From sequence record OM313460: DNA of 52,782 bases. One strand, 5' to 3'. Positions 4,381-43,938 of the stretch are shown one piece after another (the first letter of the stretch is position 1; each line of letters begins with the position of its first letter). Below the pieces are notes generated by a model that saw nothing but the letters and a program-made list of their open reading frames with translations, did not search any database and had not been told where the DNA came from. Position numbers and translations under genes: made by a program. This stretch comes from Escherichia phage vB_EcoM_IntR.

Positions 4381-4600
4381 GTATTTTCTCCTTATCAGGA
4401 CCAATCATCATCAGAGTGATACGACAGGAGCTAACCTTTTGCCTAACACAATAATAAGTGAAGCCCCTCTAAAATTTTTTTATATTTTTCGGAAATTGTG
4501 TAGACACTCACTAAAAAGTGGTGTACTTTCTCTCCTCCACGCGCTATCATTAATGTGAATCATCAAACGGCCTCACGGTCTCCTACTTGTGGGTAACATT

Positions 4601-5164
4601 ATGAAAATTGTTCAATTAGAACCATATCCGCCTCAATTGGCTATCGTTTGTAGCGAAAAAGAGCATGAAGAGCTCCAAAAGCTGATGGATTTGCCTGATT
4701 TTGGCAACTGGAATGACCGGGAAACGCGTAATGCGTCTACTTTTACGTTCACTCGCGTTAACTATCCGTACCTGTTAATCGTCGTCGAACTGTACCACCC
4801 GGACGACCTGAAGTACAACACCATTTCCCACGAAGGCATTCACGTAATGTCGTCGCTGATGAACTATGTAGGGCTTAAATACGACCCAGAAAACGATGAA
4901 TGGTACGCATATCAGCACGATTTCATCGTAAATGCCATTTGTAAGGCCCATGATGAGTACCTGGAGCGCAAAAAAGCGCCAAAACATAAGCCAAAAATCG
5001 AAACAGGCAATCATCCTGTGATACAGCCACAAGACGTAATGAACTCGCTTTTGACTGACACTACTGGGGACTTTTTAGATGATAAACCTAATCTTTGCAA
5101 TGGGCCAAAATGGGGAATTCGGGTTGTCCCCGGAGTTTATGAAGCATCAGGTGGACTCGTGTAA
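4601..5164 (+). CDS. hypothetical protein with HExxH motif (possible zinc metallopeptidase-like)
   Basis: ATG at 4601 (ORF-track start 4589 is GTG); motif ISHEGIHVM; 3' end overlaps the next gene by 86 nt. Confidence 0.45.
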   Translation: MKIVQLEPYPPQLAIVCSEKEHEELQKLMDLPDFGNWNDRETRNASTFTFTRVNYPYLLIVVELYHPDDLKYNTISHEGIHVMSSLMNYVGLKYDPENDEWYAYQHDFIVNAICKAHDEYLERKKAPKHKPKIETGNHPVIQPQDVMNSLLTDTTGDFLDDKPNLCNGPKWGIRVVPGVYEASGGLV

Positions 5165-5753
5165 GACTATGGAAGAGGTCCGTGCGCTTCCTAAGTCTGG
5201 TTTACCATGGAAGTGTCCGTCAGATATGCTCTTTTTCAGGACTATGACTAATTCAATTGCGTCAGAACCAGGCTATAATGCGTATCAGCAACTACGGGGA
5301 CAGTTCCCAAGTGACCAGTTGCGAAACATGATAGCTGATGTAACGGTAAAAATGGTTGGGCATAGCGTATTGTTAGCCGGTCGTAAAACGTTTATGACTA
5401 TGAGTCTGCCTATGTCAGCCCACCGAATACTGCTGCCGGTATCTCGTCAGATTATGGCTTCAGAAGGCTACAACAATATAGGTGAGTTGGCAGCAGCACT
5501 TGAGACCAGTGGTTCAGATGTTTGGATTGTTGGCGGTGCACAGTTAATACTTGCGGCTCTTGAAGAGCATGCCAAAGGTACACTCCGTGTTGACAACATG
5601 TTTATCAGCACAATCAAAGAAGCAGGTCCAAGTGATATATTAATGGACCGTAGCAAATTAATGATGTACATTGATAGCGACTTCACTTATAATGATGAAT
5701 ATGTTGATAACAAATCTGTGCTGATACAGCGTTACCGGAGTGTACACAAATGA
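5079..5753 (+). CDS. dihydrofolate reductase
   Basis: N-terminus MINLIFAMGQNGEFG, LPW motif, VLLAGRKTF and VWIVGGAQL blocks match DHFR signatures. Confidence 0.7.
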   Translation: MINLIFAMGQNGEFGLSPEFMKHQVDSCKTMEEVRALPKSGLPWKCPSDMLFFRTMTNSIASEPGYNAYQQLRGQFPSDQLRNMIADVTVKMVGHSVLLAGRKTFMTMSLPMSAHRILLPVSRQIMASEGYNNIGELAAALETSGSDVWIVGGAQLILAALEEHAKGTLRVDNMFISTIKEAGPSDILMDRSKLMMYIDSDFTYNDEYVDNKSVLIQRYRSVHK

Positions 5754-6256
5754 ATATCATAGTTGAGGGACCTGACAATGCTCGTAAATCTACACTTATT
5801 AAGTTCCTTGAACCTCATCTTGGCCGCGCAGTTATTCATAATACTGTTGACAAAGATGCCGAATCGGTCATGGCTAAACAGGCCAAAGAAAACGCGCTCG
5901 AAGGCAATAGTATTTACGACCGTAGCGCTGTTATATCTGAGTATATCTATTGCATGGTTCTTCAACGTACGCCTGTCATCAATATTAATGTATCACATGT
6001 AGCAGATATGTGTGACAACGCCATCGTTATCTTTTGTATGCCGCCTATTGAAAAGGTACTGGCGACTACAAAAGAAGAGATGCCTGGTGTTGTGGAAAAT
6101 CTTGAGGCGTTATACAACCAGTATGACAACCTCATTGACGAACTGGTTATGATGGGCAAGCAGTTCTTTATTTACGACTGGACTGCTGAAGAAAATGGCC
6201 CAGAAGCAGTTCTCGAATACATCAACGAACGTATTAATAAGGAGTGGAACAAATGA
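5750..6256 (+). CDS. thymidylate kinase-like dNMP kinase
   Basis: IIVEGPDNARKST aligns with the TMK P-loop (IVIEGLEGAGKTT) but lacks the glycines; DR motif (IYDRSAVISEY); ATGA-coupled to DHFR. Confidence 0.6.
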   Translation: MNIIVEGPDNARKSTLIKFLEPHLGRAVIHNTVDKDAESVMAKQAKENALEGNSIYDRSAVISEYIYCMVLQRTPVININVSHVADMCDNAIVIFCMPPIEKVLATTKEEMPGVVENLEALYNQYDNLIDELVMMGKQFFIYDWTAEENGPEAVLEYINERINKEWNK

Positions 6257-6972
6257 GCCCAGTATACAATACCTCAGTCACGCTGTCAGCAACCGTAGGG
6301 GACGTCAACAAGACTGTTACTGTGGGTTCAACTAACCCGAACCTGTCAGGCGAAGACCTGCTACGCCTGGCCAAACGTGCTCTTGAAGATAACGAAGTGA
6401 CTGGTACTGAAGGCGTTAACATTGAAATTAACGTCGAAGGGTATCCACACAGCATCAGTATTGCTACCTCTTCATTGCCGGATGATGAAACTCGTGAACA
6501 GCTGGAAACCAAAAAGTTCAACGACGAGCTGGAATATCGTACCGGTGAGATGTTCAGCAGTGCGCTAAACTGGTACTTGTGCAAGGCTTCAAACTACGCT
6601 GGCGCTCCTATGTCAGACCGTATGTTAGCTGATATGTCTGCACGTGAAATTGCTAAAGGCTGGGCGCATGTACAGATGCTGCAGGAGCATATCTGCAAGC
6701 TGGAAAGCTGCAATAAAGACGCGTCTGAGCTTATTACTGCCTATAAGCGACAGATTAACGACCTGCAGCAACTGATGGGCAAACGCGCTGAAGAATATGA
6801 GGCTGAGATTCGTAGTCTTAACGGTACGGCTGTTGCTAACAACCGTGCTTTCAGCGAAGAGCGTAAAGCGCTTATTGCCCAGCGCGACGCTGAAAAACGT
6901 CGTGCAGACGACCTAGCAAACCGTCTTAATTTTATCCGTAAACACATGGATGCTATGGAAGGGGTAATCTGA
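6253..6972 (+). CDS. hypothetical protein (C-terminal coiled coil)
   Basis: ATG at 6253 with AGGAG RBS (ORF-track start 6244 is GTG); ATGA-coupled to upstream gene. Confidence 0.5.
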   Translation: MSPVYNTSVTLSATVGDVNKTVTVGSTNPNLSGEDLLRLAKRALEDNEVTGTEGVNIEINVEGYPHSISIATSSLPDDETREQLETKKFNDELEYRTGEMFSSALNWYLCKASNYAGAPMSDRMLADMSAREIAKGWAHVQMLQEHICKLESCNKDASELITAYKRQINDLQQLMGKRAEEYEAEIRSLNGTAVANNRAFSEERKALIAQRDAEKRRADDLANRLNFIRKHMDAMEGVI

Positions 6973-7262
6973 TGGACTTGTTCGATATGGTCGAACATCC
7001 TGAAGTAAACGGCTTGGCGGAAGCTAAGCCATTTAACTGGGATGAATTCGTAGCAGGCAAACCTGCTGTAACCCACAATGGGCAGATTGCATATTACGGA
7101 GGCCATAGCGAACATCCGATGTGCACTCACCTGTACAACGCTATCACAACCATAGCCGACGAAAACGTTATTAAATACGGAAAAGATGTAATGCCTTTTC
7201 TTGTAGATGAGCGCGGTTACTTCGAAGGTAAATGGTTCCCGTTTCTGGTAGAAATGGCCTAA
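6972..7262 (+). CDS. hypothetical protein
   Basis: 96-aa ORF, start overlaps upstream stop. Confidence 0.45.
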   Translation: MDLFDMVEHPEVNGLAEAKPFNWDEFVAGKPAVTHNGQIAYYGGHSEHPMCTHLYNAITTIADENVIKYGKDVMPFLVDERGYFEGKWFPFLVEMA

Positions 7263-7378
7263 AAACCGGATAAATATAAAGGCGTCTAAGTTAGTTCTTC
7301 ATCTATATAAGCTACTTATTCGCCTTTCTACTGTAGACTTTCTCATCATCTCTCTAGACACTTCATTTTTATATTCTG

Positions 7379-7407
7379 TTTACTTACTTCGCGTAACTCG
7401 TTATAAT
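7379..7407 (+). promoter_or_regulatory. sigma70-type promoter (TTTACT-N17-TATAAT)
   Basis: TTTACT 7379-7384, 17-bp spacer, TATAAT 7402-7407; upstream of the terminase genes. Confidence 0.55.
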
Positions 7408-7439
7408 CCCGACTATCCGGATTAACGAGGACGACACCC

Positions 7440-7730
7440 ATGGCAAAACCGAAAAAAACCCGTGAGGCAACAGAAGAACTGTTGGCCACGATGCGACGTA
7501 TCCAGCTGGACCCGTTGGAAGTTATGCAACGGGCTATCATACTTGCTGAACGTGAAGACGACTACAAAGCAATGATGGATGGTGCACTGGGCGTTATGCC
7601 GTACATGTATCCTAAGCTGAAAGAATCCGTTGTCAAAGCAGACATCGACCAGAACCTGTCTGGTAATGGTGTCAACCTGAACATTACAATAGGCGACCAG
7701 AAAGTGGTAGATACTACTGGGGAAGAGTAA
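7440..7730 (+). CDS. putative terminase small subunit
   Basis: 96-aa ORF immediately upstream of the large terminase, GAGGA RBS; assignment by position only. Confidence 0.4.
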   Translation: MAKPKKTREATEELLATMRRIQLDPLEVMQRAIILAEREDDYKAMMDGALGVMPYMYPKLKESVVKADIDQNLSGNGVNLNITIGDQKVVDTTGEE

Positions 7731-34548: not shown

Positions 34549-36516
34549 TTAGTGTGCCTCTGCCCAGTTACTTTCTATCTTAGCATCAGTAAGAACAGGT
34601 ACACGAAGCGGTAGTACAGTTTCCATGACCCGTACGAAATCATAGAACCCATCTTCTGCTTGCTTACCAGACGGTAGAGAGAAGTTAAGCTCATCGTGTA
34701 CAGTCAGGCGAGGTACGCCAATCACGTCAAAGTAACCGTCTTCATACCCTTTCAGCATTGCAGACTTCATCTGGTCTGCTGACGACCCTTGCAGCACTCG
34801 GTTGATTGCCTTGTGGGTGTCTGCCAGTTTAATGTTCGGGCCATACTCCTGACGTGCTTCTTCAAATGGCAAAGGCATCTTCCCGAATCCACCACGCTTT
34901 GGTACCCACTTATTGAACCACGTCTTCCGGCCCATAAAGGTTTCTACGTACCCCTGGCTATAACATAAATCTTCATAATGCTTCATGGTAGCACCAATGA
35001 ATGGTGCGCCCTGATGGTACGCCTTCAGAACAGGTTCTGCTTCTTCAGGCGTCATTGCTAACTTACGGGCAAGAGCATTAAGCATCATGCCATATAGCAA
35101 ACCAAAGTTGATGGTCTTGGCTGGTTTACGCTCTATAACGTGACCTGAGGCTTCCTTGATAATATCGACCATAACATTGTGGTAATCTGCTTCCGGGTTA
35201 GCCGCGAAAATTGCTCGTAACTCATCAGCGCCCGGGCCGACTGCAAAATGCGCCATGAATCGATATTCAATTTGGGCGTAGTCTGCTGATCCCCATCTGT
35301 GTCCGACATCCGGTACGAAACAAGCACGAAGGAGTGGTCCCAGTATTTTGTGTCGAGACGGTATATTCTGCAGATTAGGGTCAGATGAGCTAAACCGACC
35401 ACTAACGGTTCCACCGTCATCACCGCGCATTTGATGGAATTGACCGTGAAGGAAGCCATTTGTATTCATCCCCAATATATAGCCACGAATAAACGTGGAC
35501 TGGATTTTTTCATAAGACTTAATCTCAGACACCAGTTCCGCAAACGGATGGTGCAAGCCTGCTAAGAAGTCTGCCGTAAACGACGGATTACCCGCCGCTG
35601 TTTTGAAGTACTCCAGACCTAAATGGTCAAATGCAAGAGCTAAGTCCGGACCTGAGTTAACGTTAATGTTAAAGCCAATCTGGTCTTTAATCTGCTGGTG
35701 CATTTTCCTTATTTCAGCGCTAAGCGTATCATCCGCCTCTTTGGCTTTATCAAGGTCAACACGCACACCTGCAAAACGCATCTTAAGCATTAATGGAATA
35801 AGCTTGCACTCCATATAGAATACATCTGTTAAACACCAGCGACTTAACAAAGGCCACTGGGCTTTGATAATGTGTATTGGTAAGTCGGCGTCAGATTCAG
35901 CATAGTAACCCACAAGACGAGGAGGCGTTTTGTAGATGTACTTTCTGGCTTCACCTGTTGGCTTACAGCCATAAGCATCTGAAATCCATTGGTACATCTC
36001 GGCTGAGTCTTTACCTTCGCCTACATACTTTCGTCCAAGTCCTTCAAGTGCAACACGCGCGCCTGGGTCAAGTAATGCTTCCGCGAATTGTACATCCATG
36101 CACAATCCTTTAACTTCCACGCCTTCTGCTGCAAGCCAGCCCAAGTCATATGTGATGTTAGCACCGACTTTAACTTGGTTAGGTCGCGAGAGTTCGAGCC
36201 GAAGCCAACCAAGTACTTCCTCAGCTGGAAGGTTATCCTCTTCGCCGAGCTCGTGTCTGATTGGGTAGTAAGCTTTGAAGCCGTTGTCCGTAGCGATACT
36301 AACTCCAACGATATGACCCTCCCTCCTGGCCCAACCACTACCATTTGTATCCATCCCTGGGTCGTATGTTTCACAGTCAAGACCGATAATCTTTGCAGAA
36401 GACAAATCCGGGTAATGCGCGCGCGGCCGCCATCCAGTATCCCTGACGTATGGTATAGGACGGTTGATAGGTTTAACATTCTTTGCACCTTCGAAGCTAT
36501 CGAATAAAAAGCTCAT
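34549..36516 (-). CDS. DNA polymerase, family A (with 3'-5' exonuclease domain)
   Basis: Exo I motif IGLDCETYD; Pol motif A DYAQIEYRF, motif B RKPAKTINFGLLYGM, motif C LTVHDEL. Confidence 0.85.
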   Translation of the reverse strand: MSFLFDSFEGAKNVKPINRPIPYVRDTGWRPRAHYPDLSSAKIIGLDCETYDPGMDTNGSGWARREGHIVGVSIATDNGFKAYYPIRHELGEEDNLPAEEVLGWLRLELSRPNQVKVGANITYDLGWLAAEGVEVKGLCMDVQFAEALLDPGARVALEGLGRKYVGEGKDSAEMYQWISDAYGCKPTGEARKYIYKTPPRLVGYYAESDADLPIHIIKAQWPLLSRWCLTDVFYMECKLIPLMLKMRFAGVRVDLDKAKEADDTLSAEIRKMHQQIKDQIGFNINVNSGPDLALAFDHLGLEYFKTAAGNPSFTADFLAGLHHPFAELVSEIKSYEKIQSTFIRGYILGMNTNGFLHGQFHQMRGDDGGTVSGRFSSSDPNLQNIPSRHKILGPLLRACFVPDVGHRWGSADYAQIEYRFMAHFAVGPGADELRAIFAANPEADYHNVMVDIIKEASGHVIERKPAKTINFGLLYGMMLNALARKLAMTPEEAEPVLKAYHQGAPFIGATMKHYEDLCYSQGYVETFMGRKTWFNKWVPKRGGFGKMPLPFEEARQEYGPNIKLADTHKAINRVLQGSSADQMKSAMLKGYEDGYFDVIGVPRLTVHDELNFSLPSGKQAEDGFYDFVRVMETVLPLRVPVLTDAKIESNWAEAH

Positions 36517-37511
36517 CAGTCCCCTCTCACATACGCAATTACAACTGTACGAGTTGAGTTTTCCATTTTGAGCGCCTGACTACCCAGTCCTATTCTTTCC
36601 ATGCCTTTAGCCAGTTTACTCATCTGACTAATAACACAGTTGAACGGTTTACTAAACTTAGTCGACTGGAACTTAATGTCGACGGACATCTTTGGAATAA
36701 TCTTATCTGGTAAGTCTGCCTTTGCAGTTGACTCGCCTGTTATCTCCAGAATAGCCTGACCTTCGTCGTACCCAGTAAGCTGGTCCATGACTTCCAGGAA
36801 CTCAGGAGTGATGGCCTGCATATCCATTTCCATATTGAAGAACTTCGATACGTCTGGCCATTTGGCTGCGAGTACCGGAGCATCCATCTGTACGCCATCC
36901 GCAAAGCCGAAGAACATCTGGCCGCGGGCGTATCCTACACTTGTGGGTTCCATCTTCAGCTTAACCAGGGCCTCAAGCATTGGTTTGGCTATGGCACATT
37001 CAAATTCAAAATCCACGTTCAACTTCTCGCGTATCATATACTTACCGTTAGTGGCGTAAGCATAACCATCGCGCAGAAGTAAAGATGTTGCCCATACCTG
37101 CGGTGCTTCGTTAGGTACCCATTTGGCTAAGGCAGTTAATACCGGGAGTAATTCGCCATGTGCTGAATACCAGTTGTTAACTGTAGCAAGCGGCGGTATT
37201 GGTTCATTAAGCGCTTGCATTCTTGTTTTAAGTACACCTGCTGTGACTGTGAGGTTTCCAGCGGCTGTAATGTTAAAAGTAATCTGTTCAGTTCTTGCCG
37301 CATTAACGGCCTTACGAAATGATTCAGCATCCACTTGCAGGTCTGGAAATCCTTTACATGGCGCTCGTAGTAATACGTTCTTGTAGTATGAATGGATTGT
37401 TCCGTCTGCAATCCATATTTTGCCCATAAGACCACTATCAGTATACTTGATGGGACGAGCTTGTTGAACGGCAGTCTGTATTTGTTTGGTGTCATAGTTA
37501 AACTTGCTCAT
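36516..37511 (-). CDS. hypothetical protein adjacent to the DNA polymerase gene
   Basis: 331-aa ORF; start follows a stable hairpin; function not recognisable by eye. Confidence 0.5.
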   Translation of the reverse strand: MSKFNYDTKQIQTAVQQARPIKYTDSGLMGKIWIADGTIHSYYKNVLLRAPCKGFPDLQVDAESFRKAVNAARTEQITFNITAAGNLTVTAGVLKTRMQALNEPIPPLATVNNWYSAHGELLPVLTALAKWVPNEAPQVWATSLLLRDGYAYATNGKYMIREKLNVDFEFECAIAKPMLEALVKLKMEPTSVGYARGQMFFGFADGVQMDAPVLAAKWPDVSKFFNMEMDMQAITPEFLEVMDQLTGYDEGQAILEITGESTAKADLPDKIIPKMSVDIKFQSTKFSKPFNCVISQMSKLAKGMERIGLGSQALKMENSTRTVVIAYVRGD

Positions 37512-37518
37512 AGTATAA

Positions 37519-37534
37519 CGGGGCCGAAGCCCCG
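37519..37534 (-). promoter_or_regulatory. stable intergenic hairpin (UUCG tetraloop on transcript strand)
   Basis: CGGGGC-CGAA-GCCCCG on the + strand, so CGGGGC-UUCG-GCCCCG in the leftward transcript, between the ThyA-family and downstream genes. Confidence 0.5.
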
Positions 37535-37541
37535 CTCCATC

Positions 37542-38426
37542 TTATACGGCCATTTGGAGTTTGATGTTTGGCATTGGTTTGTACTTCTCAACCATTGGCG
37601 TAACATCGGCAGGAGTGAAGTCAAACACTGACACGTCACAAATTGCATTAATGTCAGGACGACCTTCAAAGTTAGTGTCCAGTGTAGTATCAGAATTGCT
37701 TACGATACGTTGCAGGAAAATCTTTGCCGCATCGATATGATTCTGATAGATGTGATAATCACCCAGCGTAACAGTCATATCCCCTACACCAACACCCAGC
37801 TCAGCAGCAATGGTAATCTGCAACATCTGATGCAGCAGAATGTCATGAGGCAGGCCCAGAATAACATCCGCGCTACGCATATGGAACATCAGCTCTAATT
37901 CATTACGGTTGTTAATGAACAGCTGAAAACCATGGTAACAAGGCGGAAGGGCCATGGCGTCCATCTCTTGTGGGTTCCATGCCGTAACGTAAGCCCGGCG
38001 GTCGGTAGGTTTAACCTTCAGCGTTTCAATAACATCTTTAAGCTGGTTAGTGAGAACACCATTCTTATAGAATGGCTTAATCCACTGCACGCCGTACACA
38101 GGACCTAAGTCACGGTTGTCTGGTGTACCCCAACGTTTGTTTGCATCCTGCAGATTACCTTCCCACCAGTTGCAGCCAAAACCTTTGAGCGTATCGACAT
38201 TTGAAATGCCGTTGATAAAGCAATAAAGCTCAGCAGCAACAGCCTTGATGTTAACTGGTTTAAATACCGGTACCATCAGTTTGTTGTCCTTGAAAGCCAG
38301 CTTAAACGCTGTACCAAAACAACGGCGTGTACCAACACCTGTACGGTCTTCGACATCTTCACCCTTACGCAGGATAAACGAAATGATGTCGCTGTAAAGA
38401 GAATCGACAGTGCTGTATGTTTTCAT
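37542..38426 (-). CDS. ThyA-family pyrimidine C5-modifying enzyme, predicted dCMP-specific (hydroxymethylase or methyltransferase)
   Basis: DRTGVGT, DLGPVYGVQW, MALPPCYHGFQ (catalytic Cys), RSADVILGLPHD; Asp replaces the Asn177-equivalent and Tyr replaces His147; AAGGAA RBS. Confidence 0.75.
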   Translation of the reverse strand: MKTYSTVDSLYSDIISFILRKGEDVEDRTGVGTRRCFGTAFKLAFKDNKLMVPVFKPVNIKAVAAELYCFINGISNVDTLKGFGCNWWEGNLQDANKRWGTPDNRDLGPVYGVQWIKPFYKNGVLTNQLKDVIETLKVKPTDRRAYVTAWNPQEMDAMALPPCYHGFQLFINNRNELELMFHMRSADVILGLPHDILLHQMLQITIAAELGVGVGDMTVTLGDYHIYQNHIDAAKIFLQRIVSNSDTTLDTNFEGRPDINAICDVSVFDFTPADVTPMVEKYKPMPNIKLQMAV

Positions 38427-39019
38427 TAAAACAGTTCCTTTTGGGCCGGGTTAACGTGTGCGTCGATGATTGCCTGAATGTCAGGTGCTTTCCATCCTTC
38501 AGGCTTAACAATATCCTGACCAGACTTATGCTTACTGTTGCTTGCATCAGGCTTAGCGCGTTCTTTCGCCATGTTAGCAGCCTGTACCGCATCCCATGCA
38601 TCATCAAGTGGCCAGTTGTTGTTTGCACACCAGGTAATCAGGTGGATAATTAACTGTGCCAGACGGTCGCAATGAGTGTCTTCAGTATCCTTAACGTATA
38701 CGATAAGACCTTCAGCATCAAAGCGGTCCATAAATCCGCATGGCGTAGTCAATAGAATCGGATACTCAAATTCGTTGGTGAACCATGCTGTCTGGTCATA
38801 CAGGTATAACGTACCTGCAGCAATATAGATTAAGTCTACAATACCGTCTAAGAATCCAGCTTTATCGCCTTCTTTCTTAGCTTGCTTAATTTCATCCATC
38901 TCCTCAATAAGACGGTCATAACGAAGTTTGAACTCTGGCTTGCCGCCTTGACTAATCGGCTTGAGGTCAAACTTCTCGTGGAAAGCTGTAACACCTGCAG
39001 CAATTTTACTGAATCGCAT
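38426..39019 (-). CDS. MazG-like NTP pyrophosphohydrolase (candidate dCTPase/dUTPase)
   Basis: LIEEMDEI (EExxE-like) and LDGIVDLIYIAAG blocks; AAGGAG RBS; stop overlaps the ThyA-family start. Confidence 0.5.
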   Translation of the reverse strand: MRFSKIAAGVTAFHEKFDLKPISQGGKPEFKLRYDRLIEEMDEIKQAKKEGDKAGFLDGIVDLIYIAAGTLYLYDQTAWFTNEFEYPILLTTPCGFMDRFDAEGLIVYVKDTEDTHCDRLAQLIIHLITWCANNNWPLDDAWDAVQAANMAKERAKPDASNSKHKSGQDIVKPEGWKAPDIQAIIDAHVNPAQKELF

Positions 39020-39404
39020 TTCTTAACTCCTTACAAACAGTTTCGATAAACTTACGTTTTGTTTCAGTAGACCAGATTATATGTCGGGCCTTCTCTAATA
39101 CGTCCCAGCGGTCTTTACCCACAGGAAAGGGAACAATGAAGAGGCCGGTGCGAGATATACGCTTGATAAACGGGAACTTGCAACGCATGGTTGTTTCAAA
39201 TTTGATAAAGTTATTTTGCGCTTCGCGTGTAAATTTAACCTTATCAAATTCATGCTCGAGTGTTTGAGCAAGGTTGCATACCTCATGGAAAGAGGATGCA
39301 GGCAGGTAGTCTTCACGACCGACAGTGTTTACGTAGTCGATTTGACCTTCAAGACGAAGTATCCAAATTCTATAATAAGCTTCAGCGACACGTTGTAGAT
39401 TCAT
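39006..39404 (-). CDS. hypothetical protein
   Basis: 132-aa ORF with GAGGAGAG RBS, first gene downstream of the 39431-39459 promoter. Confidence 0.5.
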   Translation of the reverse strand: MNLQRVAEAYYRIWILRLEGQIDYVNTVGREDYLPASSFHEVCNLAQTLEHEFDKVKFTREAQNNFIKFETTMRCKFPFIKRISRTGLFIVPFPVGKDRWDVLEKARHIIWSTETKRKFIETVCKELRNAIQ

Positions 39405-39430
39405 TGTATCTCTCCTCTAAAAGATAACTT

Positions 39431-39459
39431 ATTATACCACATCACTCTCTAGTGGTAAA
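39431..39459 (-). promoter_or_regulatory. sigma70-type promoter on the minus strand (TTTACC-N17-TATAAT)
   Basis: Reverse complement of 39431-39459 reads TTTACC-17 nt-TATAAT. Confidence 0.55.
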
Positions 39460-39474
39460 GCACTTTTTATGCTT

Positions 39475-39509
39475 CGGGTAAAATAAAAAGGACCAGCGTT
39501 AACTGGTCC
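39475..39509 (-). terminator. rho-independent terminator (minus strand)
   Basis: GGACCAG-CGTTAA-CTGGTCC hairpin followed on the minus strand by TTTTTATTTT. Confidence 0.7.
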
Positions 39510-39741
39510 TTATGGCAGGGTGGCGTAAGGAGATACAAGGAATCGCAGTTATGCAACCAGGCAGCGCATATGAGATTGGCTTAAGGACTGACCGACTTAA
39601 TCCCCGCGACGAGTCGAAAGGAGGTACCATCAAGTAGCCAATCACATATGCGTTACTTGCTGTGTGCTCTTACCACAGAAAGTATATAGCGTTACACTTA
39701 TCACACAGTTGTAGTGGCAAAAGCACACAGCAAGTACAACC

Positions 39742-39828
39742 TTAGTTGTGGTGTCTTAGCACCTGAGTTATTGTGGATAACCTGCACCCGACGGGTGTCA
39801 AAAAGATACGCCAAAACACCACAACTAA
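39742..39828. repeat. 13-bp perfect inverted repeat pair flanking a DnaA-box-like 9-mer
   Basis: TTAGTTGTGGTGT at 39742-39754 and ACACCACAACTAA at 39816-39828; TGTGGATAA (reverse complement TTATCCACA) at 39772-39780; palindrome CACCCGACGGGTG at 39785-39797. Confidence 0.5.
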
Positions 39829-40079
39829 AATTGTGACCGCCGTCTACACCAGGCGCCTGGGGTCAAGGTAGCGAGCCAATACCCTTTTCAGCGTCGGAGG
39901 AATCGAACCTCACACATCACGGCTTTTACCAAATCTCGGTCAGCGAGCAGAATTGAACTGCATTCACTGGACACCCTCACTGTTTCAACACACCAGGCTT
40001 AATTGATTGTTGATAAGAAGAGAGATGTAAGGATGTCCATTGAATGCACCTCCGTAGAGGTGCGTTCAGATCAGCGCTA

Positions 40080-40547
40080 TTATTCAGCAACTTCTTCGTT
40101 GTCGCCTTCGATCGCGCCAGCCAGTTTAGCAGCTTCAGCTTTAGCAGCTTCTGCTTTCTGGCGAGCTTTTTCAGCTTTCTCTTCAGCTTTGCGAATCTGC
40201 TCAGCAGCTTTCGCTTCGGCTTTTTCAGCTTTGATGCGAGCACGCTCTTCAGCTTTACGCTGTTTTTCAGCAGCTTTAGCAGCATCGCGTTCTGCTTTAG
40301 CGGTATCAACGCGCTTAGCCAGAACTTTACCAGTGGCTTTACGCCAGTAGGTCAGCTGGGAAGAAACAGTACCACGGGACATTTCGGTAGTGGCAACAAC
40401 TTCGTCCATAACATCGGAGCTGGACTTGCCTTCTTCATGGGCTTTATCAGCCAGGTCCCATACGTAACGTGCGCCAGTACCAGCTGCCGGATACAGTACG
40501 CCGTTAACTTCTTCTTTACCAGTTACAAAAGTCAGTTTCTCGCTCAT
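40080..40547 (-). CDS. hypothetical protein with C-terminal Lys/Ala/Glu-rich single-helix repeat
   Basis: ATG at 40545-40547 with GAGGAAAA RBS; C-terminus KAEKAEAKAAEQIRKAEEKAEKARQKAEAAKAEAAK; overlapping + strand ORFs are low-complexity mirror frames. Confidence 0.5.
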   Translation of the reverse strand: MSEKLTFVTGKEEVNGVLYPAAGTGARYVWDLADKAHEEGKSSSDVMDEVVATTEMSRGTVSSQLTYWRKATGKVLAKRVDTAKAERDAAKAAEKQRKAEERARIKAEKAEAKAAEQIRKAEEKAEKARQKAEAAKAEAAKLAGAIEGDNEEVAE

Positions 40548-40653
40548 AATTTTTTCCTCGTCTACAGGGCTTAATGTTTGTTCGTTACGTGAGTTAATAT
40601 ACGTCATTTAAAAGAGAGTGTAAACACCTTTTTTAAACTTTTTTCATTAGTGT

Positions 40654-40881
40654 TTAGAAAGGCACATCATAGTCAAAAAGTTTACATCCGGAAGACAGGA
40701 CTGCCGGCGGTGGTGTTTTGCCTCCGGATAATAGACAACCTCCTGCCTGAAAGCTACGGCAGTTCGCACAGCTCATATCCTGCAGGTATATAATAAGCTG
40801 CCGGCGAACGTGCCGAGGCAAAGCTTTAGCCTGGGTTGCTACCCGTTCAAATAGTTCTCTGTTATCGAGCGCCATAGCCAT
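40654..40881 (-). CDS. hypothetical Cys-containing small protein
   Basis: 75-aa ORF overlapping the helicase 3' end by 20 nt. Confidence 0.3.
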   Translation of the reverse strand: MAMALDNRELFERVATQAKALPRHVRRQLIIYLQDMSCANCRSFQAGGCLLSGGKTPPPAVLSSGCKLFDYDVPF

Positions 40882-42532
40882 TTCCCCAGTCGTAGTTCAT
40901 GATTTGTGGGTAGGGCCGTTTAATCCATACCTTAATACGCTTAGGAATGGCCAGCTCACCCTTACGGCGGATAAACTCGTCGCATGTTTCAGGCGGTTCG
41001 GTTCCTGCAGCATTACGCCACCAGGCATCTGCCATTTGTTTAGCATTACCATGGGCCTCAATATTTACCCAAGTTGTGTACACTTCCAGGTTTGAGTAGT
41101 ACACAACCTTTATACTGTCAGGTCGTCCTTGCTTCTGGAATAAAGAATAGTTTACCAGCGTAACATCTTTATCCACAACACGAAGCTGGCCATTAGTCAT
41201 TACTTCTTCTTCTGACGAAGTGAATGCAATAGCAGGTCCGTTAACTGTAAATTCAAATTCATGTCCGCACATCGGATATACACCATTCTCATCTGGCGTA
41301 CTTCCTTTAGCCGGATGCTTACACGTACGGGCGGCATAACCACTTACCTGGTGGCAGATAGGGCACTCTTTACCGCCAGGTGTTTTCTCTGACCGTTTCT
41401 TTTTCTTCTTACCAAGACGTGGCGGAACAGCCGGGTCATCAATAGGCCCAAGGTCAATGGTGTTAGATGTAAAGTCCATGACAAGACAGTCATGCTTACC
41501 AGGCGCTGTACGTAACCCTCGACCGAGTATCTGCACCCACAAAGCAACAGACGTGGACGGGCGCAAGATGCCGAGCATATCAATCTCAGGATAGTCAAAT
41601 CCTGTTGTCAATACGTTTACGTTTACACAGACCCGTGCTCGTCCGCTTGTAAACTCTTCCAGCGCCGTTTCACGTTCTTTCTTTGTAAGACCGCCATGCA
41701 CAACTACAGTCTGCCACCCTCGCAGATTAAATTCGTCTGCTATGTTGTGGGCGTGTTCAACACTTGTGGCGAATACAAGAACGTGGTTCCTGTCTTTACC
41801 GTAGTGCATCATCTCGCGGATGGCTGCAACTGTTATGCTGTGTTGGTTGGCTACCTTCTCAAGCTCTGACGGTATATAATCACCCATCCTTTCGCCAACA
41901 TTACTGGTGTCAATCTTGGTTAACACTTTCTTGTTGACCAGGCGTGACAGGAAGCCTTCATTTACCAGTCTGGTGAATGCGTCAGGTGTTGTAAGGTCAT
42001 AGCAGATGTCGGTAAATATACCGCAGTCAAGTAAGTGACCACCCGCCAGTCGATACGGAGTTGCTGTAAGGCCTGTTACCTTTACCTTAGGATTAAGCTC
42101 TTTGAAATGAGCAATAACCTTACGGTATGTTGTTTCAGACTTCTCAGGAACAAGATGGGCTTCGTCAATGAATATAAGATTGAACTTACCTGCTTCTTCC
42201 AGGTTCTTAATAATCGACTGTACTGACGCTACAACGATACGACCTGAAAAGTCTTTGTGTCCTGCGCCTGAAGAGTAGATTGATACTGGTGCTTGCGGCC
42301 AGTGGCGAACAATCGCTTTGGCGTCTTGTTCTACCAGCTCCTTGACGTGTGTCAATATAAGAATACGCTGACGTGGATAGCTGGTAAGAATATCCTTCAT
42401 CAACATACCAAGCACAGGTGATTTACCTGAACCTGTAGGCATGACAATAAGTGGATTACCACTATAAGAATTGAAGTACGACCACCAAGCTGTGACCGCT
42501 TCTTTTTGATACCAGCGAGCTTCAAAAGCCAT
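40862..42532 (-). CDS. SF2 DNA helicase (DEAH-type)
   Basis: Motif I MPTGSGKS, motif II FIDEAH, motif III TATP, motif VI QILGRGLR; C-terminal Cys cluster CPICH...C. Confidence 0.8.
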   Translation of the reverse strand: MAFEARWYQKEAVTAWWSYFNSYSGNPLIVMPTGSGKSPVLGMLMKDILTSYPRQRILILTHVKELVEQDAKAIVRHWPQAPVSIYSSGAGHKDFSGRIVVASVQSIIKNLEEAGKFNLIFIDEAHLVPEKSETTYRKVIAHFKELNPKVKVTGLTATPYRLAGGHLLDCGIFTDICYDLTTPDAFTRLVNEGFLSRLVNKKVLTKIDTSNVGERMGDYIPSELEKVANQHSITVAAIREMMHYGKDRNHVLVFATSVEHAHNIADEFNLRGWQTVVVHGGLTKKERETALEEFTSGRARVCVNVNVLTTGFDYPEIDMLGILRPSTSVALWVQILGRGLRTAPGKHDCLVMDFTSNTIDLGPIDDPAVPPRLGKKKKKRSEKTPGGKECPICHQVSGYAARTCKHPAKGSTPDENGVYPMCGHEFEFTVNGPAIAFTSSEEEVMTNGQLRVVDKDVTLVNYSLFQKQGRPDSIKVVYYSNLEVYTTWVNIEAHGNAKQMADAWWRNAAGTEPPETCDEFIRRKGELAIPKRIKVWIKRPYPQIMNYDWGNGYGAR

Positions 42533-42590
42533 TTAACGTCTCCTCATTAACTTCATATATTATACCACTTCCTTGTGGTGATGTATACTT

Positions 42591-43469
42591 TTATTTTAAG
42601 GAAAGTTTAACGGGCTTCTCATCCTGTGGGAAGACATCAGCAGGGCGATACTCATCGCAAGCCGCTAATTGCTCTTCGATTGTTTCGAGTTCTTTCTGGT
42701 GCTTGTTGCAGTACCACACTTTGCCCTGAAGCGGTTTACTGTAATGGCAGGTTCTGCAGTTCCTGTCTGGCATTGCTCCTTTGTGGCACAAGTGATGGTA
42801 TTCGCACATCCCTGGTTTGCACTCCCACCAAATAGGCGATTCAGAAATCTTCGGCATATCCAAACCAGATTCCGCATATACAACAGCCTCCGCTTTACTC
42901 AGTTGTATGTCGCTTTCCAGTAAGTCAATCTCGACCACTTCAAAATACATCTCGTCAGTGTTCTTGTTGATTGCAATATACACAGCTTGATTCAGCTTAA
43001 GCTTCCGCATGTACACCTGCATCTGGGCGTAGTGTACCGGCTTACTTGCTTTAACAGACTTGAGCTTGACTAACTCTTTAAACGACTTATCGCCATGCGT
43101 CTTGAATTCAGCAAGTGCCCATACGCCTTTGTATTTAATTACACAGTCACAAGACCCAGAGAAGATGTCATTGAAGTCGTGTATGCGCCATTGCTTACCA
43201 GTCTTGGGATTGACGTCCAGCACTTCGTCACATACGGAACGAAGCCACTTTACAATTCTGCTTTCTTCAAGGTTACCACGTTCAAACAGACGAAGTTGCT
43301 TAGCTGTAAACTTCTCCTTGAACGACCAGTGCAGAACGTGCCAAAGATAGCGATAGCAGTTGTGTCCTATCTGCGATGCTCCAAGATGCCCGCGTCGTTC
43401 TTCTCTTTCATGGGCTTCGACTATCTTGATGTCAATACGTTTCTGCAGGTCGTTAAACGGACTGGGCAT
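42591..43469 (-). CDS. RecB-family (Cas4-like) PD-(D/E)XK exonuclease with Cys cluster
   Basis: ATG at 43467-43469 with GAGGAG RBS; DCVIKYKGVWALAEFK (D...ExK), QMQVY (QhxxY), C-terminal CKPGMCEYHHLC...CRTC. Confidence 0.6.
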   Translation of the reverse strand: MPSPFNDLQKRIDIKIVEAHEREERRGHLGASQIGHNCYRYLWHVLHWSFKEKFTAKQLRLFERGNLEESRIVKWLRSVCDEVLDVNPKTGKQWRIHDFNDIFSGSCDCVIKYKGVWALAEFKTHGDKSFKELVKLKSVKASKPVHYAQMQVYMRKLKLNQAVYIAINKNTDEMYFEVVEIDLLESDIQLSKAEAVVYAESGLDMPKISESPIWWECKPGMCEYHHLCHKGAMPDRNCRTCHYSKPLQGKVWYCNKHQKELETIEEQLAACDEYRPADVFPQDEKPVKLSLK

Positions 43470-43938
43470 TGTTAAACTCCTCAACGCTGAATTCATCATA
43501 CACAATATTATGTGCCCACAAATGGGCGACGGCATTTGCCATGCTGTCCTTCCATTTGGATTGAGAAGCTGTGTGTGCCAATGCAACTACCCGAACCAGG
43601 TTAAGGTTGGCTATCAGCATATCTGCACAATGTTCGCACGGCGGGTAGGTTATGTAGATGGTAACCGGGCCTAATGAAGGAGTGTCTAACTCACTCCTTA
43701 TATTAGCTAAGGTATTTATCTCGCTATGAATAGTGAGAGCGTTCTTGAGGCTATTAGGCACTATTCTTATAGAGTCTAGCTGCGTAGGCAGACCGTTATA
43801 TCCAGTGGAAATAATACGCTTGTTCTGGTCCACAAGAACGCTACCGACTTGACGTTTCGGGTCCTTCGACCAGCTTGCAACTTCACAAGCTATGCGCATA
43901 AACCGCTTATCCCACTTGTCCATCTTCTTCTTTTGCAT
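43453..43938 (-). CDS. dCMP deaminase (cytidine/deoxycytidylate deaminase family)
   Basis: Zinc-binding HSE (HSEINTL) and PCEHC motifs; GGAGA RBS. Confidence 0.8.
   Translation of the reverse strand: MQKKKMDKWDKRFMRIACEVASWSKDPKRQVGSVLVDQNKRIISTGYNGLPTQLDSIRIVPNSLKNALTIHSEINTLANIRSELDTPSLGPVTIYITYPPCEHCADMLIANLNLVRVVALAHTASQSKWKDSMANAVAHLWAHNIVYDEFSVEEFNNAQSV

What the first reader, a model, noticed from the sequence alone, without database searches (positions are those of the whole stretch)
5079..6256. DHFR plus thymidylate-kinase-like gene with a glycine-poor P-loop, far from the ThyA-family gene
A clear DHFR is ATGA-coupled to a TMK-fold kinase whose P-loop reads GPDNARKST instead of GxxGxGKT/S. 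DHFR is only needed if a folate-dependent C5 transfer releases dihydrofolate (reductive methylation). If the ThyA-like enzyme is dCMP-specific, this argues for a dCMP methyltransferase route to 5-methyl-dC rather than a hydroxymethylase, and the atypical kinase may phosphorylate the modified dNMP. dCMP deaminase at 43453-43938 completes a T4-like nucleotide toolkit split across two strands.
Basis: partly seen in the sequence, partly recalled or inferred. Interest (0 to 1): 0.6.

Follow-up and report, generated by a model that had tools for sequence, protein, structure and literature searches.

The report
Phage toolkit for 5-methylcytosine DNA
This Salmonella/E. coli phage appears to carry a split gene set that most likely replaces the cytosine in its DNA with 5-methylcytosine, which would explain an "unknown DNA modification" reported for its relatives; this rests on sequence and published digests, not on a measurement of the base.

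Summary
DHFR (5079-5753) overlaps by ATGA a 168-aa P-loop kinase (5750-6256) whose Walker A reads GPDNARKST.

The key evidence is elsewhere. The only ThyA-family gene (37542-38426, minus strand) has Asp where every dUMP-specific thymidylate synthase has Asn177. It also has H147Y, Q165M and F176H. It keeps Leu143, Asp169 and the TS C-terminal tail. By published rules this is the dCMP methyltransferase (5-methyl-dCMP synthase) signature.

The signature defines a clade of about 32 phage cluster representatives under strong purifying selection. All four genes of the operon of Xanthomonas phage Xp12, the classic 5mC phage (pyrophosphohydrolase, ThyA-Asp177, deaminase, DHFR), have homologs here.

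Published digests of relatives S144 and fHy-Eco03 show an unexplained cytosine-linked modification. Their pattern, with ScaI the only C-containing site cut, fits 5mC better than 5hmC.

In every other lineage inspected (3 isolates and one metagenomic lineage), the kinase family sits in one operon with an Asp177 ThyA homolog. This supports a role as modified-dCMP kinase.

The "glycine-poor P-loop" is a red herring. The family motif is GxDNxGK[ST] (166 of 169 members); Arg12 is a rare allele on a ~360-bp recombination tract.

Verdict: a new member of a known kind. No biochemistry was done.

The parts
5079..5753 (+). Dihydrofolate reductase (224 aa). It has two lineage-specific insertions, at about residues 17-38 and 58-92.
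   Evidence: Pfam DHFR_1 scores 33.8 bits (gathering score 25) and phrog_316 5.7e-27. Trp22, Asp27, Phe31, Thr35 and Gly95-Gly96 equivalents are conserved, as is the GR-x-T motif. dN/dS is 0.13-0.26. The DHFR-kinase pair is conserved in a 55%-identical relative.
5750..6256 (+). P-loop nucleoside/NMP kinase (168 aa) of the phrog_761 / YorR-like family. It is the proposed 5-methyl-dCMP kinase.
   Evidence: phrog_761 1.1e-23. AF2 pLDDT is 89, with the best PDB matches YorR 3kb2/2axp at TM 0.71. In PMBT14, Serbin, GTE2 and metagenomic contig L009 the family is in one operon with Asp177 ThyA homologs. dN/dS is 0.26-0.47.
5750..5753 (+). ATGA overlap of the DHFR stop codon and the kinase start codon (translational coupling).
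   Evidence: Read directly from the sequence.
5768..5794 (+). Walker A / P-loop GPDNARKST. Arg12 is the CGT codon at 5783-5785, where 166 of 169 family members have Gly.
5499..5858 (+). Recombination tract of about 360 bp. It spans the DHFR 3' end, the junction and the kinase 5' end, and carries the Arg12 allele.
   Evidence: In 60-nt windows the tract is 92-100% identical to Loughboroughvirus S144 but 75-92% identical to Rosemountvirus SPLA2. The relationship is reversed outside the tract.
37542..38426 (-). ThyA-family enzyme (294 aa), predicted to be a dCMP C5-methyltransferase (5-methyl-dCMP synthase) rather than a thymidylate synthase.
   Evidence: Pfam Thymidylat_synt 3.2e-63. Asp195 aligns with E. 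coli Asn177, Tyr164 with His147, Met183 with Gln165 and His194 with Phe176. Leu160 (Leu143), Asp187 (Asp169), Cys163, Arg184, His225, Tyr227 and the ...NIKLQMAV tail are retained. dN/dS is 0.04-0.14.
37842..37844 (-). Codon GAC = Asp195, the specificity-determining residue (E. coli ThyA Asn177).
38426..39019 (-). All-alpha (MazG/PRA-PH-like) nucleotide pyrophosphohydrolase abutting the ThyA homolog. It is the proposed dCTPase that supplies dCMP and removes dCTP.
   Evidence: Pfam PRA-PH 1.4e-07 (above the gathering score) and phrog_671 5e-24. It is homologous (E 2.4e-11) to the Xp12 gene immediately upstream of the Xp12 ThyA homolog and to PMBT14 gp49.
43453..43938 (-). dCMP-deaminase-family zinc deaminase. 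It is proposed to convert part of the 5-methyl-dC nucleotide pool into thymidine nucleotides.
   Evidence: Pfam dCMP_cyt_deam_1 2.3e-21 and MafB19-deam 5.2e-12. It is 33% identical to the Xp12 deaminase over the full length, E 4e-23. The substrate is inferred from the Xp12 scheme (bioRxiv 10.1101/2024.12.05.627091).
34549..36516 (-). Family A DNA polymerase, which would have to incorporate 5-methyl-dCTP. Listed as context for the module.
   Evidence: Annotated in relatives. It is homologous to the PolA genes of the PMBT14, Serbin, GTE2 and L009 modules, and weakly to the Xp12 polymerase.

Best explanation
The DHFR-kinase pair is one half of a split, Xp12-like pathway that replaces dC with 5-methyl-dC in the phage DNA before replication.

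Proposed steps:
1. The MazG-like pyrophosphohydrolase (38426-39019) converts dCTP to dCMP. This step is inferred.
2. The ThyA homolog (37542-38426) methylates dCMP at C5, using methylene-tetrahydrofolate as both carbon donor and reductant, and releases dihydrofolate. The substrate is predicted from Asp177; the methyl product is predicted from Leu143, Asp169 and the TS-type tail.
3. The DHFR (5079-5753) regenerates tetrahydrofolate. The family assignment is shown; the role is inferred.
4. The translationally coupled kinase (5750-6256) phosphorylates 5-methyl-dCMP to the diphosphate, and host NDP kinase completes 5-methyl-dCTP. This is inferred from conserved operon linkage in other phages.
5. 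The family-A polymerase incorporates 5-methyl-dCTP.
6. The deaminase (43453-43938) converts part of the 5-methyl-dC nucleotide pool to thymidine nucleotides, so no separate thymidylate synthase is needed. This is inferred from Xp12.

The resulting DNA resists most restriction enzymes whose sites contain cytosine. Arg12 in the P-loop is a tolerated allele brought in by recombination, not a defining feature.
For: ThyA active site:
- Asp195 aligns unambiguously with E. coli Asn177 within RS.DV.LGLP[N/D]I. H147Y, Q165M and F176H accompany it, and Leu143, Asp169, Cys146, Arg166, His207, Tyr209, Glu58, Tyr94 and the C-terminal tail are retained.
- Rules from the literature: N177D switches TS to dCMP; positions 177 and 147 best separate modified from unmodified metagenomic contigs (PMC8670742). 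Leu143 goes with a methyl product and Asp/Glu143 with hydroxymethyl; D169N marks 5-hydroxy-dCMP synthases (PMC13326640).
- Of 32 clade representatives (51-98% identical, from contigs of 44-54 kb), all have Tyr147/Met165/His176 and 30 have Asp177. All 90 next-best hits have His/Gln/Phe/Asn. ThyA dN/dS is 0.04-0.14.

Xp12 precedent:
- Xp12 has pyrophosphohydrolase-like, ThyA(Asp177), deaminase and DHFR genes in one operon.
- Window homologs score: pyrophosphohydrolase 2.4e-11, ThyA 5.7e-22, deaminase 4e-23 at 33% identity, DHFR 3e-06.
- The preprint 10.1101/2024.12.05.627091 reports linked Thymidylat_synt, MafB19-deam, PRA-PH and DNA_pol_A genes on modified contigs. Five of seven such ThyA homologs made 5mdCMP.

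Experiments on relatives:
- S144 DNA resisted seven restriction enzymes with GC-containing sites and was cut only by SspI and PacI, whichever host it was grown on (PMC7432712).
- fHy-Eco03 DNA was cut only by ScaI out of 10 enzymes (PMC8145870).
- On Xp12 (5mC) DNA, ScaI gives partial cleavage, while NcoI, NotI, SphI, AflII, Sau3AI, SmaI, XhoI, GGCGCC, GGGCCC and CCGCGG enzymes are blocked. On T4gt (5hmC) DNA, ScaI is blocked (PMC7653180).

Kinase:
- The same family sits in one operon with a dUTPase/MazG-like gene, an Asp177 ThyA homolog, a deaminase and PolA in PMBT14, Serbin, GTE2 and metagenomic contig L009.
- A phage-induced 5-methyl-dCMP kinase is documented for Xp12 (Wang et al. 1982, cited in PMC10742078).
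- S144 carries the same Arg12 allele and has modified DNA.

Other: no DNA methyltransferase, glycosyltransferase or TET-like domain was found in the 38 ORFs scanned against Pfam.
Against: - No enzyme activity or base composition was measured for this phage or for any member of its genus. The published digests cannot distinguish a C modification from a G modification, or 5mC from other small C5 groups, with certainty. ScaI was only 'partial' on Xp12 DNA.
- The position-143 rule is not absolute. Xp12's own 5mdCMP synthase aligns Asn there.
- The ThyA homolog passes the TIGR03284 'thymidylate synthase' equivalog cut-off (176 bits against 108). Outside its clade it is closest to canonical TS at about 36% identity.
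- Two clade members have Asn177.
- The kinase is the least constrained gene (dN/dS up to 0.47). It has Arg in place of a near-invariant Walker A glycine. It is structurally nearest to deoxynucleoside kinases rather than NMP kinases. Xp12 lacks the family.
- PMBT14-type modules show no DHFR in the stretches inspected, so DHFR is not obligatory.
- Two relatives list E. coli K-12 derivatives as host. Such strains normally have McrBC, which attacks 5mC DNA (background knowledge, not checked here).
Confidence: 0.68

Rival explanations
1. This is an ordinary phage dTTP-supply kit. The deaminase makes dUMP from dCMP, the ThyA homolog is a true thymidylate synthase, DHFR recycles folate, and the kinase is a thymidylate kinase. 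On this reading, the DNA modification seen in relatives has another, unidentified cause.
For: This is how database records and the S144 paper annotate these genes. The ThyA homolog passes TIGR03284 and is closest to canonical TS outside its clade. PHROGs calls the kinase 'thymidylate kinase'.
Against: Asn177 is replaced by Asp, together with three other pocket changes, across a clade under strong purifying selection, while all 90 canonical neighbours keep Asn. N177D is known to abolish the dUMP preference (PMC8670742; PMC13326640). The kinase matches no curated TMK model. No other modification enzyme was found (PMC7432712), yet relatives' DNA is modified at sites containing cytosine.
Confidence: 0.07
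2. The ThyA homolog acts on dCMP but makes a different C5 product. Candidates are 5-hydroxymethyl-dCMP, 5-hydroxy-dCMP or something new, possibly tailored further on the DNA. The kinase would phosphorylate that product, and DHFR would only support general folate turnover.
For: Asp177 is shared by hydroxymethylases and hydroxylases. The Tyr147/Met165/His176 pocket has not been characterised. The position-143 rule has exceptions. Many window ORFs have no known function. S144's digest pattern fits 5hmC as well as 5mC.
Against: Position 143 is Leu, not Asp/Glu. Position 169 is Asp, not Asn. The TS C-terminal tail that closes the active site for hydride transfer is retained. DHFR is conserved with the clade. 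ScaI cuts fHy-Eco03 DNA but is fully blocked by 5hmC. No glycosyltransferase or other tailoring enzyme was detected.
Confidence: 0.13
3. The modification pathway is real, but this kinase is not its dedicated 5-methyl-dCMP kinase. It could be a deoxynucleoside salvage kinase. Alternatively, the Arg12 version in this window could be crippled, with host kinases doing the phosphorylation.
For: The best structural matches after YorR are deoxynucleoside kinases. Arg replaces a glycine conserved in 166 of 169 relatives. The kinase has the highest dN/dS of the set. Xp12 does without this family.
Against: In four other lineages the kinase lies directly beside enzymes that produce and consume dNMPs. The ORF is intact and under purifying selection (dN/dS 0.26-0.47). 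The Arg12 allele persists in two genera, including S144, which has modified DNA.
Confidence: 0.12

Closest known systems
Xanthomonas phage Xp12 5-methylcytosine pathway (5mdCMP synthase, 5-methyl-dCTP deaminase, DHFR, phage-induced 5mdCMP kinase)
   Same: It has an Asp177 ThyA homolog. The adjacent pyrophosphohydrolase-like gene is homologous (E 2.4e-11), the deaminase is 33% identical, a DHFR is present and the polymerase is family A. The predicted outcome, 5mC replacing C, is the same.
   Different: Xp12 is a siphovirus of the Mesyanzhinovviridae with the genes in one operon. Here the DHFR and kinase sit about 32 kb away on the other strand, next to the packaging genes. The ThyA homolog here is much more TS-like (Leu143, full C-terminal tail, 36% identity to E. 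coli ThyA, against Asn143 and a short tail in Xp12). Xp12 has no member of this kinase family.
Bacteriophage T4 hydroxymethylcytosine toolkit (gp56 dCTPase, gp42 dCMP hydroxymethylase, gp1 dNMP kinase, cd, td, frd)
   Same: The logic is the same: hydrolyse dCTP, modify dCMP with a ThyA homolog carrying Asp177, phosphorylate with a phage kinase, and also encode a deaminase and a DHFR.
   Different: T4 gp42 has an acidic residue at position 143 and makes a hydroxymethyl product without producing dihydrofolate (PMC13326640). T4 has a separate true TS (td). Structures of gp1-type dNMP kinases were not among the top matches to this kinase. No glucosyltransferases are present here.
Metagenomic ThyA(Asp177), mSCD deaminase, PRA-PH, PolA modules (MetaGPA; eLife 2021 and bioRxiv 2024.12.05.627091)
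   Same: The Pfam set is the same: Thymidylat_synt, dCMP_cyt_deam_1/MafB19-deam, PRA-PH and DNA_pol_A. The PMBT14, Serbin, GTE2 and L009 operons have this layout together with this kinase family.
   Different: Those studies used T4 gp1 as the kinase and, in the passages read, do not assign a cognate kinase family. Their ThyA homologs, judged by PMBT14 and its relatives, belong to a very divergent subfamily with a short tail and Arg143, and have an extra conserved ~260-aa gene that is absent here.
Canonical thymidylate kinase (TMK) and deoxynucleoside kinases; B. subtilis SPbeta YorR
   Same: The fold is a P-loop nucleoside/NMP kinase fold. The family motif G-x-D-N-x-G-K-[ST] is an ordinary Walker A. 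An Asp-Arg pair (residues 57-58) is invariant in the aligned family members; comparing it with the DR[YFH]/ERS motif of TMKs and dNKs rests on memory and was not tested.
   Different: No curated TMK or dNK model is matched above threshold. The protein is shorter (168 aa). The region where a LID would be expected (TKEEMPGVVEN) contains no arginine, judged by eye and not mapped onto the model. The closest structure, YorR, is itself uncharacterised.

Membership tests
ThyA / thymidylate synthase superfamily (PF00303) | Significant match to the family profile over the full length, with the catalytic Cys146, Arg166, Ser167, Asp169, His207 and Tyr209 | tested here: met
   Pfam 3.2e-63 and 213.8 bits against a cut-off of 24.3. 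All listed residues are conserved.
Canonical dUMP-methylating thymidylate synthase | Asn at position 177 (E. coli numbering), which selects dUMP and excludes dCMP | tested here: not met
   Asp195 occupies this position. All 90 canonical neighbours have Asn.
Canonical dUMP-methylating thymidylate synthase | His147 and Gln165 of the pyrimidine-pocket hydrogen-bond network | tested here: not met
   Tyr164 and Met183 occupy these positions, and Phe176 is replaced by His194.
Canonical dUMP-methylating thymidylate synthase | Score above the curated equivalog cut-offs | tested here: inconclusive
   It passes TIGR03284 (175.9 bits against 108.35) but fails NF002497 (190 against 327) and the other NF0024xx models.
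dCMP C5-methyltransferase (5mdCMP synthase, Xp12 type) | Asp at position 177 | tested here: met
   Asp195. The same residue is found in Xp12 and S144.
dCMP C5-methyltransferase (5mdCMP synthase, Xp12 type) | Non-acidic residue at 143 and Asp at 169 (not the hydroxymethylase or hydroxylase signatures), with the TS C-terminal tail retained | tested here: met
   Leu160, Asp187 and the tail ...NIKLQMAV. The rules come from PMC13326640.
dCMP C5-methyltransferase (5mdCMP synthase, Xp12 type) | Enzyme converts dCMP to 5-methyl-dCMP with dihydrofolate release, and virion DNA contains 5mC in place of C | not testable with these tools
   Only indirect evidence is available. Published restriction patterns of relatives fit 5mC.
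T4-type dCMP hydroxymethylase | Asp or Glu at position 143 together with Asp177 | tested here: not met
   Position 143 is Leu.
5-hydroxy-dCMP synthase (RB69 gp48 type) | Asn at position 169 (D169N) | tested here: not met
   Position 169 is Asp187.
Dihydrofolate reductase (PF00186) | Profile match above the gathering score, plus catalytic Asp27, Trp22, Phe31, the GR-x-T NADPH motif and Gly95-Gly96 | tested here: met
   33.8 bits against 25, phrog_316 5.7e-27, and the residues.
Thymidylate kinase (curated TMK families) | Match to a curated dTMP-kinase model | tested here: not met
   No Pfam TMK hit (only dNK at 15.4 bits against 27), no NCBIfam hit and no PDB sequence hit. Only the PHROG family name says 'thymidylate kinase'.
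P-loop nucleoside/NMP kinase fold | Predicted structure superposes on known kinases of this fold | tested here: met
   pLDDT 89. YorR TM 0.71, deoxyadenosine kinase TM about 0.6, TMK TM about 0.6.
P-loop NTPases (Walker A) | GxxxxGK[ST] | tested here: not met
   The window has G-P-D-N-A-R-K-S, with Arg12 in place of the second Gly. The family consensus meets the motif in 166 of 169 members.
dCMP/cytidine deaminase family (PF00383) | Zinc-binding deaminase domain | tested here: met
   2.3e-21 and 76 bits against 25.
5mC-selective (d)CTP deaminases (mSCD) | Preference for 5-methyl-dCTP over dCTP or dCMP | not testable with these tools
   The trait is polyphyletic and has no sequence signature. 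The only available evidence is 33% identity to the Xp12 deaminase.
All-alpha NTP pyrophosphohydrolases (MazG / PRA-PH) | Profile match, with the substrate being dCTP | tested here: inconclusive
   PRA-PH 32.2 bits against 21.3, and phrog_671 5e-24. The substrate was not determined.

The most novel reading that the evidence does not exclude
The Tyr147/Met165/His176/Asp177 pocket, which is not described in any paper found here, may make a C5 product other than plain 5-methyl-dCMP. The uncharacterised YorR-like kinase family would then be a dedicated kinase for modified dCMP across a widespread phage module. On this reading, Rosemountvirus and Loughboroughvirus DNA carries a cytosine derivative not yet described.
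Probability: 0.1. Interest if true: 0.8.

Novelty: new member of a known kind. Interest (0 to 1): 0.55.

Why it matters
- **An open question becomes testable.** Rosemountvirus and Loughboroughvirus phages are isolated repeatedly as biocontrol and therapy candidates against Salmonella and E. coli. Two papers reported that their DNA carries an unidentified modification and could not name the genes. This analysis names a candidate gene set and a predicted base (5mC), which one LC-MS run could check.
- **A systematic misannotation.** 'Thymidylate synthase', 'thymidylate kinase' and 'dCMP deaminase' are read as a dTTP pathway in dozens of records.
- **A candidate enzyme.** The kinase family is a candidate natural 5-methyl-dCMP kinase. 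The recent studies read here used T4 gp1 instead, so it could be useful for making 5-methyl-dCTP enzymatically.
- **Practical consequences.** Full 5mC substitution would affect cloning, restriction mapping, nanopore and bisulfite-type sequencing, sensitivity to Type IV restriction systems and host range.

Tried and rejected
- **The P-loop as a functional signature.** Rejected. The DN residues are family-wide. Arg12 occurs in 2 of 169 representatives and lies on a recombination tract.
- **A homolog of this kinase in Xp12.** None found, either by alignment of two candidates or by a family HMM against all Xp12 ORFs.
- **A sequence signature for 5mC-selective deaminases.** The preprint says the trait is polyphyletic, so this was dropped.
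- **Other modification enzymes in the window.** 38 ORFs were scanned against Pfam (14 of them also against PHROGs). No DNA methyltransferase, glycosyltransferase or TET/JBP-like hit appeared.
- **Papers linking Rosemountvirus or Loughboroughvirus to 5mC, or resolving the S144 or fHy-Eco03 modification.** None found in the library.
- **The conserved ~260-aa gene of PMBT14-type operons.** It has no counterpart in the window.
- **PDB sequence search for the kinase.** Only chance-level hits.
- **Palindrome avoidance.** GATC depletion is compatible with the model but also common in enteric phages, so it is not used as evidence.
Full report
**What the window is.** The window is a complete genome of about 52.8 kb from a Rosemountvirus (BP63-like) myophage of Salmonella and E. 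coli. About 60 phage records match it at 80-98% identity, and the gene order equals that of annotated relatives.

**Checking the observation.** ORF 5079-5753 (224 aa) and ORF 5750-6256 (168 aa) are present and overlap in ATGA.
- The first ORF is a DHFR. It scores 33.8 bits on Pfam DHFR_1 against a gathering score of 25, and 5.7e-27 on phrog_316. Trp22, Asp27, Phe31, Thr35, the GR-x-T motif and Gly95-Gly96 are conserved, and there are two lineage-specific insertions.
- The second ORF matches phrog_761, named 'thymidylate kinase', at 1.1e-23. It matches no curated TMK model in Pfam or NCBIfam and no PDB sequence.
- An AlphaFold model built from 15 homologs is confident (pLDDT 89, pTM 0.86). It resembles the uncharacterised SPbeta prophage protein YorR most closely (TM 0.71), then deoxynucleoside kinases, then shikimate, thymidylate and adenylate kinases. 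It is a small nucleoside/NMP kinase, and 'TMK' is a loose label.

**The P-loop.** The sequence GPDNARKST is read correctly, but it is not a family trait.
- A profile search of 1.84 billion cluster representatives found 3,442 relatives at E <= 0.001.
- Among the 169 sequences in hand, 166 have Gly at position 12 and the common motif is G-x-D-N-x-G-K-[ST], an ordinary Walker A. Only two have Arg, and both belong to this immediate group.
- The largest close cluster (BP63 type, 101 member sequences) and the deposited swi3 sequence have Gly.
- Sliding-window comparison shows that window 5499-5858 is 92-100% identical to Loughboroughvirus S144 but only 75-92% identical to Rosemountvirus SPLA2. Outside this stretch the relationship is reversed. 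The Arg12 allele (CGT against GGT) therefore arrived on a recombination tract of about 360 bp spanning the DHFR-kinase junction.
- The kinase remains intact and under purifying selection (dN/dS 0.26-0.47, against 0.13-0.26 for DHFR and 0.04-0.14 for ThyA).

**The ThyA homolog, which decides the interpretation.** The only ThyA-family gene is at 37542-38426 on the minus strand (Pfam 3.2e-63).
- Alignments to solved thymidylate synthases and to E. coli ThyA place Asp195 at the position of Asn177 (GLPHDI against GLPFNI). Tyr164 aligns with His147, Met183 with Gln165 and His194 with Phe176.
- Cys146, Arg166, Ser167, Asp169, His207, Tyr209, Glu58, Tyr94, Trp80, Leu143 and the C-terminal tail are retained.
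- Published work gives the reading of these positions. N177D converts TS into a dCMP methylase. Positions 177 and 147 are the two that best separate cytosine-modified from unmodified metagenomic contigs (PMC8670742). Leu143 goes with methyl products and Asp/Glu143 with hydroxymethyl products. Asn169 marks the newly described flavin-dependent 5-hydroxy-dCMP synthases (PMC13326640).
- The window enzyme is Asp177, Leu143, Asp169, which is the dCMP methyltransferase pattern.
- Among 120 retrieved homologs, a discrete clade of 32 representatives (51-98% identical, mostly from contigs of 44-54 kb) all carry Tyr147/Met165/His176, and 30 carry Asp177. Every more distant hit (<=40% identity) has the canonical His/Gln/Phe/Asn.
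- The enzyme still passes the broad TIGR03284 'thymidylate synthase' cut-off, which explains its routine annotation.

**The precedent.** Xanthomonas phage Xp12, whose DNA has 5mC in place of all C, encodes in one operon a hydrolase, a ThyA homolog with Asp177, a dCMP-deaminase-family enzyme and a DHFR.
- All four have homologs in the window. The pyrophosphohydrolase beside the window's ThyA matches the Xp12 'HAD hydrolase' at 2.4e-11. The ThyA homologs match at 5.7e-22. The deaminases are 33% identical (4e-23). The DHFRs match weakly (3e-06).
- A 2024 preprint shows that deaminases linked to Asp177 ThyA homologs can be 5-methyl-dCTP deaminases that supply dTTP. It also reports that such loci typically combine Thymidylat_synt, MafB19-deam, PRA-PH and DNA_pol_A domains, and that five of seven linked ThyA homologs made 5mdCMP. 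The window's minus-strand module (34549-43938) has exactly these domains.

**Experimental data on relatives.**
- For Loughboroughvirus S144, which shares the Asp177 ThyA, the DHFR and the Arg12 kinase, DNA from three different hosts resisted seven enzymes with GC-containing sites and was cut only by SspI and PacI. The authors concluded that cytosine is modified and could not find the genes (PMC7432712).
- For Rosemountvirus fHy-Eco03, only ScaI of 10 enzymes cut, and the authors left the modification unexplained (PMC8145870).
- A survey of more than 200 enzymes shows ScaI partially cutting Xp12 (5mC) DNA. NcoI, NotI, SphI, AflII, Sau3AI, SmaI, XhoI and the GGCGCC, GGGCCC and CCGCGG enzymes are blocked. 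On T4gt (5hmC) DNA ScaI is fully blocked (PMC7653180 and its supplement).
- The published patterns therefore fit 5mC better than 5hmC.
- I found no paper that connects these phages to 5mC or resolves the modification. One paper states that they lack an extensive set of nucleotide-modifying enzymes.

**The kinase's role.** In Pseudomonas phage PMBT14, Serratia phage Serbin, Gordonia phage GTE2 and a metagenomic contig (kinases 27-36% identical to the window's), the kinase homolog sits in one operon. It is followed by a MazG- or dUTPase-like gene, a conserved unknown gene, a ThyA homolog, a deaminase, PolA and a nuclease.
- All four of these ThyA homologs have Asp at position 177, although they belong to a very divergent subfamily.
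- In a 55%-identical relative the DHFR-kinase pair is conserved as in the window.
- A phage-induced 5-methyl-dCMP kinase was described for Xp12 in 1982 (cited in PMC10742078), but Xp12 has no member of this family.
- I infer that this family supplies the kinase step for the modified dCMP. The substrate has not been shown.

**Mechanism and confidence.** The most likely scheme runs as follows: dCTP to dCMP (pyrophosphohydrolase); dCMP to 5-methyl-dCMP plus dihydrofolate (ThyA homolog); dihydrofolate to tetrahydrofolate (DHFR); 5-methyl-dCMP to the diphosphate (kinase) and on to the triphosphate (host enzyme); incorporation by the phage polymerase; and deamination of part of the pool to thymidine nucleotides.
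- Shown here: the family assignments, the active-site residues, their conservation and the gene linkage.
- Inferred: every substrate and the identity of the base.
- I put 0.68 on this scheme, 0.13 on a different C5 product, 0.07 on an ordinary dTTP kit, and 0.12 on the kinase not being the dedicated enzyme.

**Caveats.**
- The position-143 rule has an exception in Xp12 itself.
- Two clade members have Asn177.
- Some relatives are recorded on E. coli K-12 hosts, which normally restrict 5mC DNA (the restriction is background knowledge, not checked here).
- The digests cannot formally exclude a guanine modification.

**Verdict.** The emphasised P-loop oddity is incidental, and the better analogue is Xp12 rather than T4. 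This is a new member of a known kind of system. Its practical value is that it offers a directly testable answer to an open question about a group of therapeutically used phages.

Noticed in passing
window 1-50000 against MT768059.1 (L014): The window is exactly co-linear with the deposited swi3 genome: same total length (52,782), same gene coordinates and no indels in 50 kb. Yet it differs at 2,051 positions (4.1%), mostly at third codon positions. Natural genomes this divergent would normally differ by indels. A reference-guided assembly of a different isolate is one possible explanation.
   Followed up: partly
window 5499-5858: A tract of about 360 bp across the DHFR-kinase junction is nearly identical to Loughboroughvirus S144 and unlike other Rosemountviruses. 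This indicates recent exchange between the two genera.
   Followed up: yes
whole window: GATC is strongly depleted (27 observed against 160 expected, O/E 0.17, z -10.5) and GATATC is absent (0 against 12.7). GC-only tetranucleotide palindromes are not depleted (O/E 0.84-1.12). MboI (GATC) is one of the few enzymes that still cuts 5mC Xp12 DNA.
   Followed up: partly
P0182 and P0191 (ThyA clade members, contigs of 1-1.6 kb): Two members of the Tyr147/Met165/His176 ThyA clade have Asn rather than Asp at position 177. They could be natural revertants, a different specificity or sequencing errors.
   Followed up: no
L006 11942-12730; L007 6637-7446; L008 10138-11031; L009 9118-9876: PMBT14-type operons carry a conserved gene of about 260 aa between the dUTPase-like gene and a divergent, C-terminally short ThyA homolog (Asp177, Arg143). 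The metagenomic copy has no recorded Pfam hit. It has no homolog in the window or in Xp12. Its role is unknown.
   Followed up: partly
L009 11289-13931: The family-A DNA polymerase of this metagenomic module carries an N-terminal uracil-DNA-glycosylase domain (PF03167) fused to the exonuclease and polymerase domains.
   Followed up: no
window 38426-39019 and L002 46207-46980: The Xp12 gene annotated 'hydrolase (HAD superfamily)' directly upstream of its ThyA homolog is homologous (E 2.4e-11) to the window's MazG/PRA-PH-like pyrophosphohydrolase. The Xp12 annotation may be wrong.
   Followed up: partly
window 4589-5164: The upstream ORF (phrog_1365, unknown function) runs 86 nt into the DHFR gene in the window. 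In swi3 and SPLA2 the corresponding gene ends 8 nt after the DHFR start, so the C-terminus differs.
   Followed up: no
the stretch of OM313461.1 (PiR) and MT764207.1 (JEP7) that matches window 4500-7500: These two close relatives carry an extra ~480 bp, annotated as a homing endonuclease, within the stretch matching window 4500-7500. The insertion point was not located.
   Followed up: no
records KY608966.1 (CF2) and MN158218.1 (BEC1-17): Two relatives list E. coli K-12 derivatives as host. K-12 normally carries McrBC, McrA and Mrr, which attack 5mC DNA (background knowledge, not checked here). So these phages may encode an inhibitor of Type IV restriction among their unknown early genes, or the hosts may have been mcr-negative.
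   Followed up: no
window 5079-5753: Relative to E. coli FolA and the Xp12 DHFR, this DHFR has two insertions. One of about 22 residues lies before the conserved LPW motif, and one of about 35 residues lies after the Thr35 region. Both are shared with S144.
   Followed up: partly
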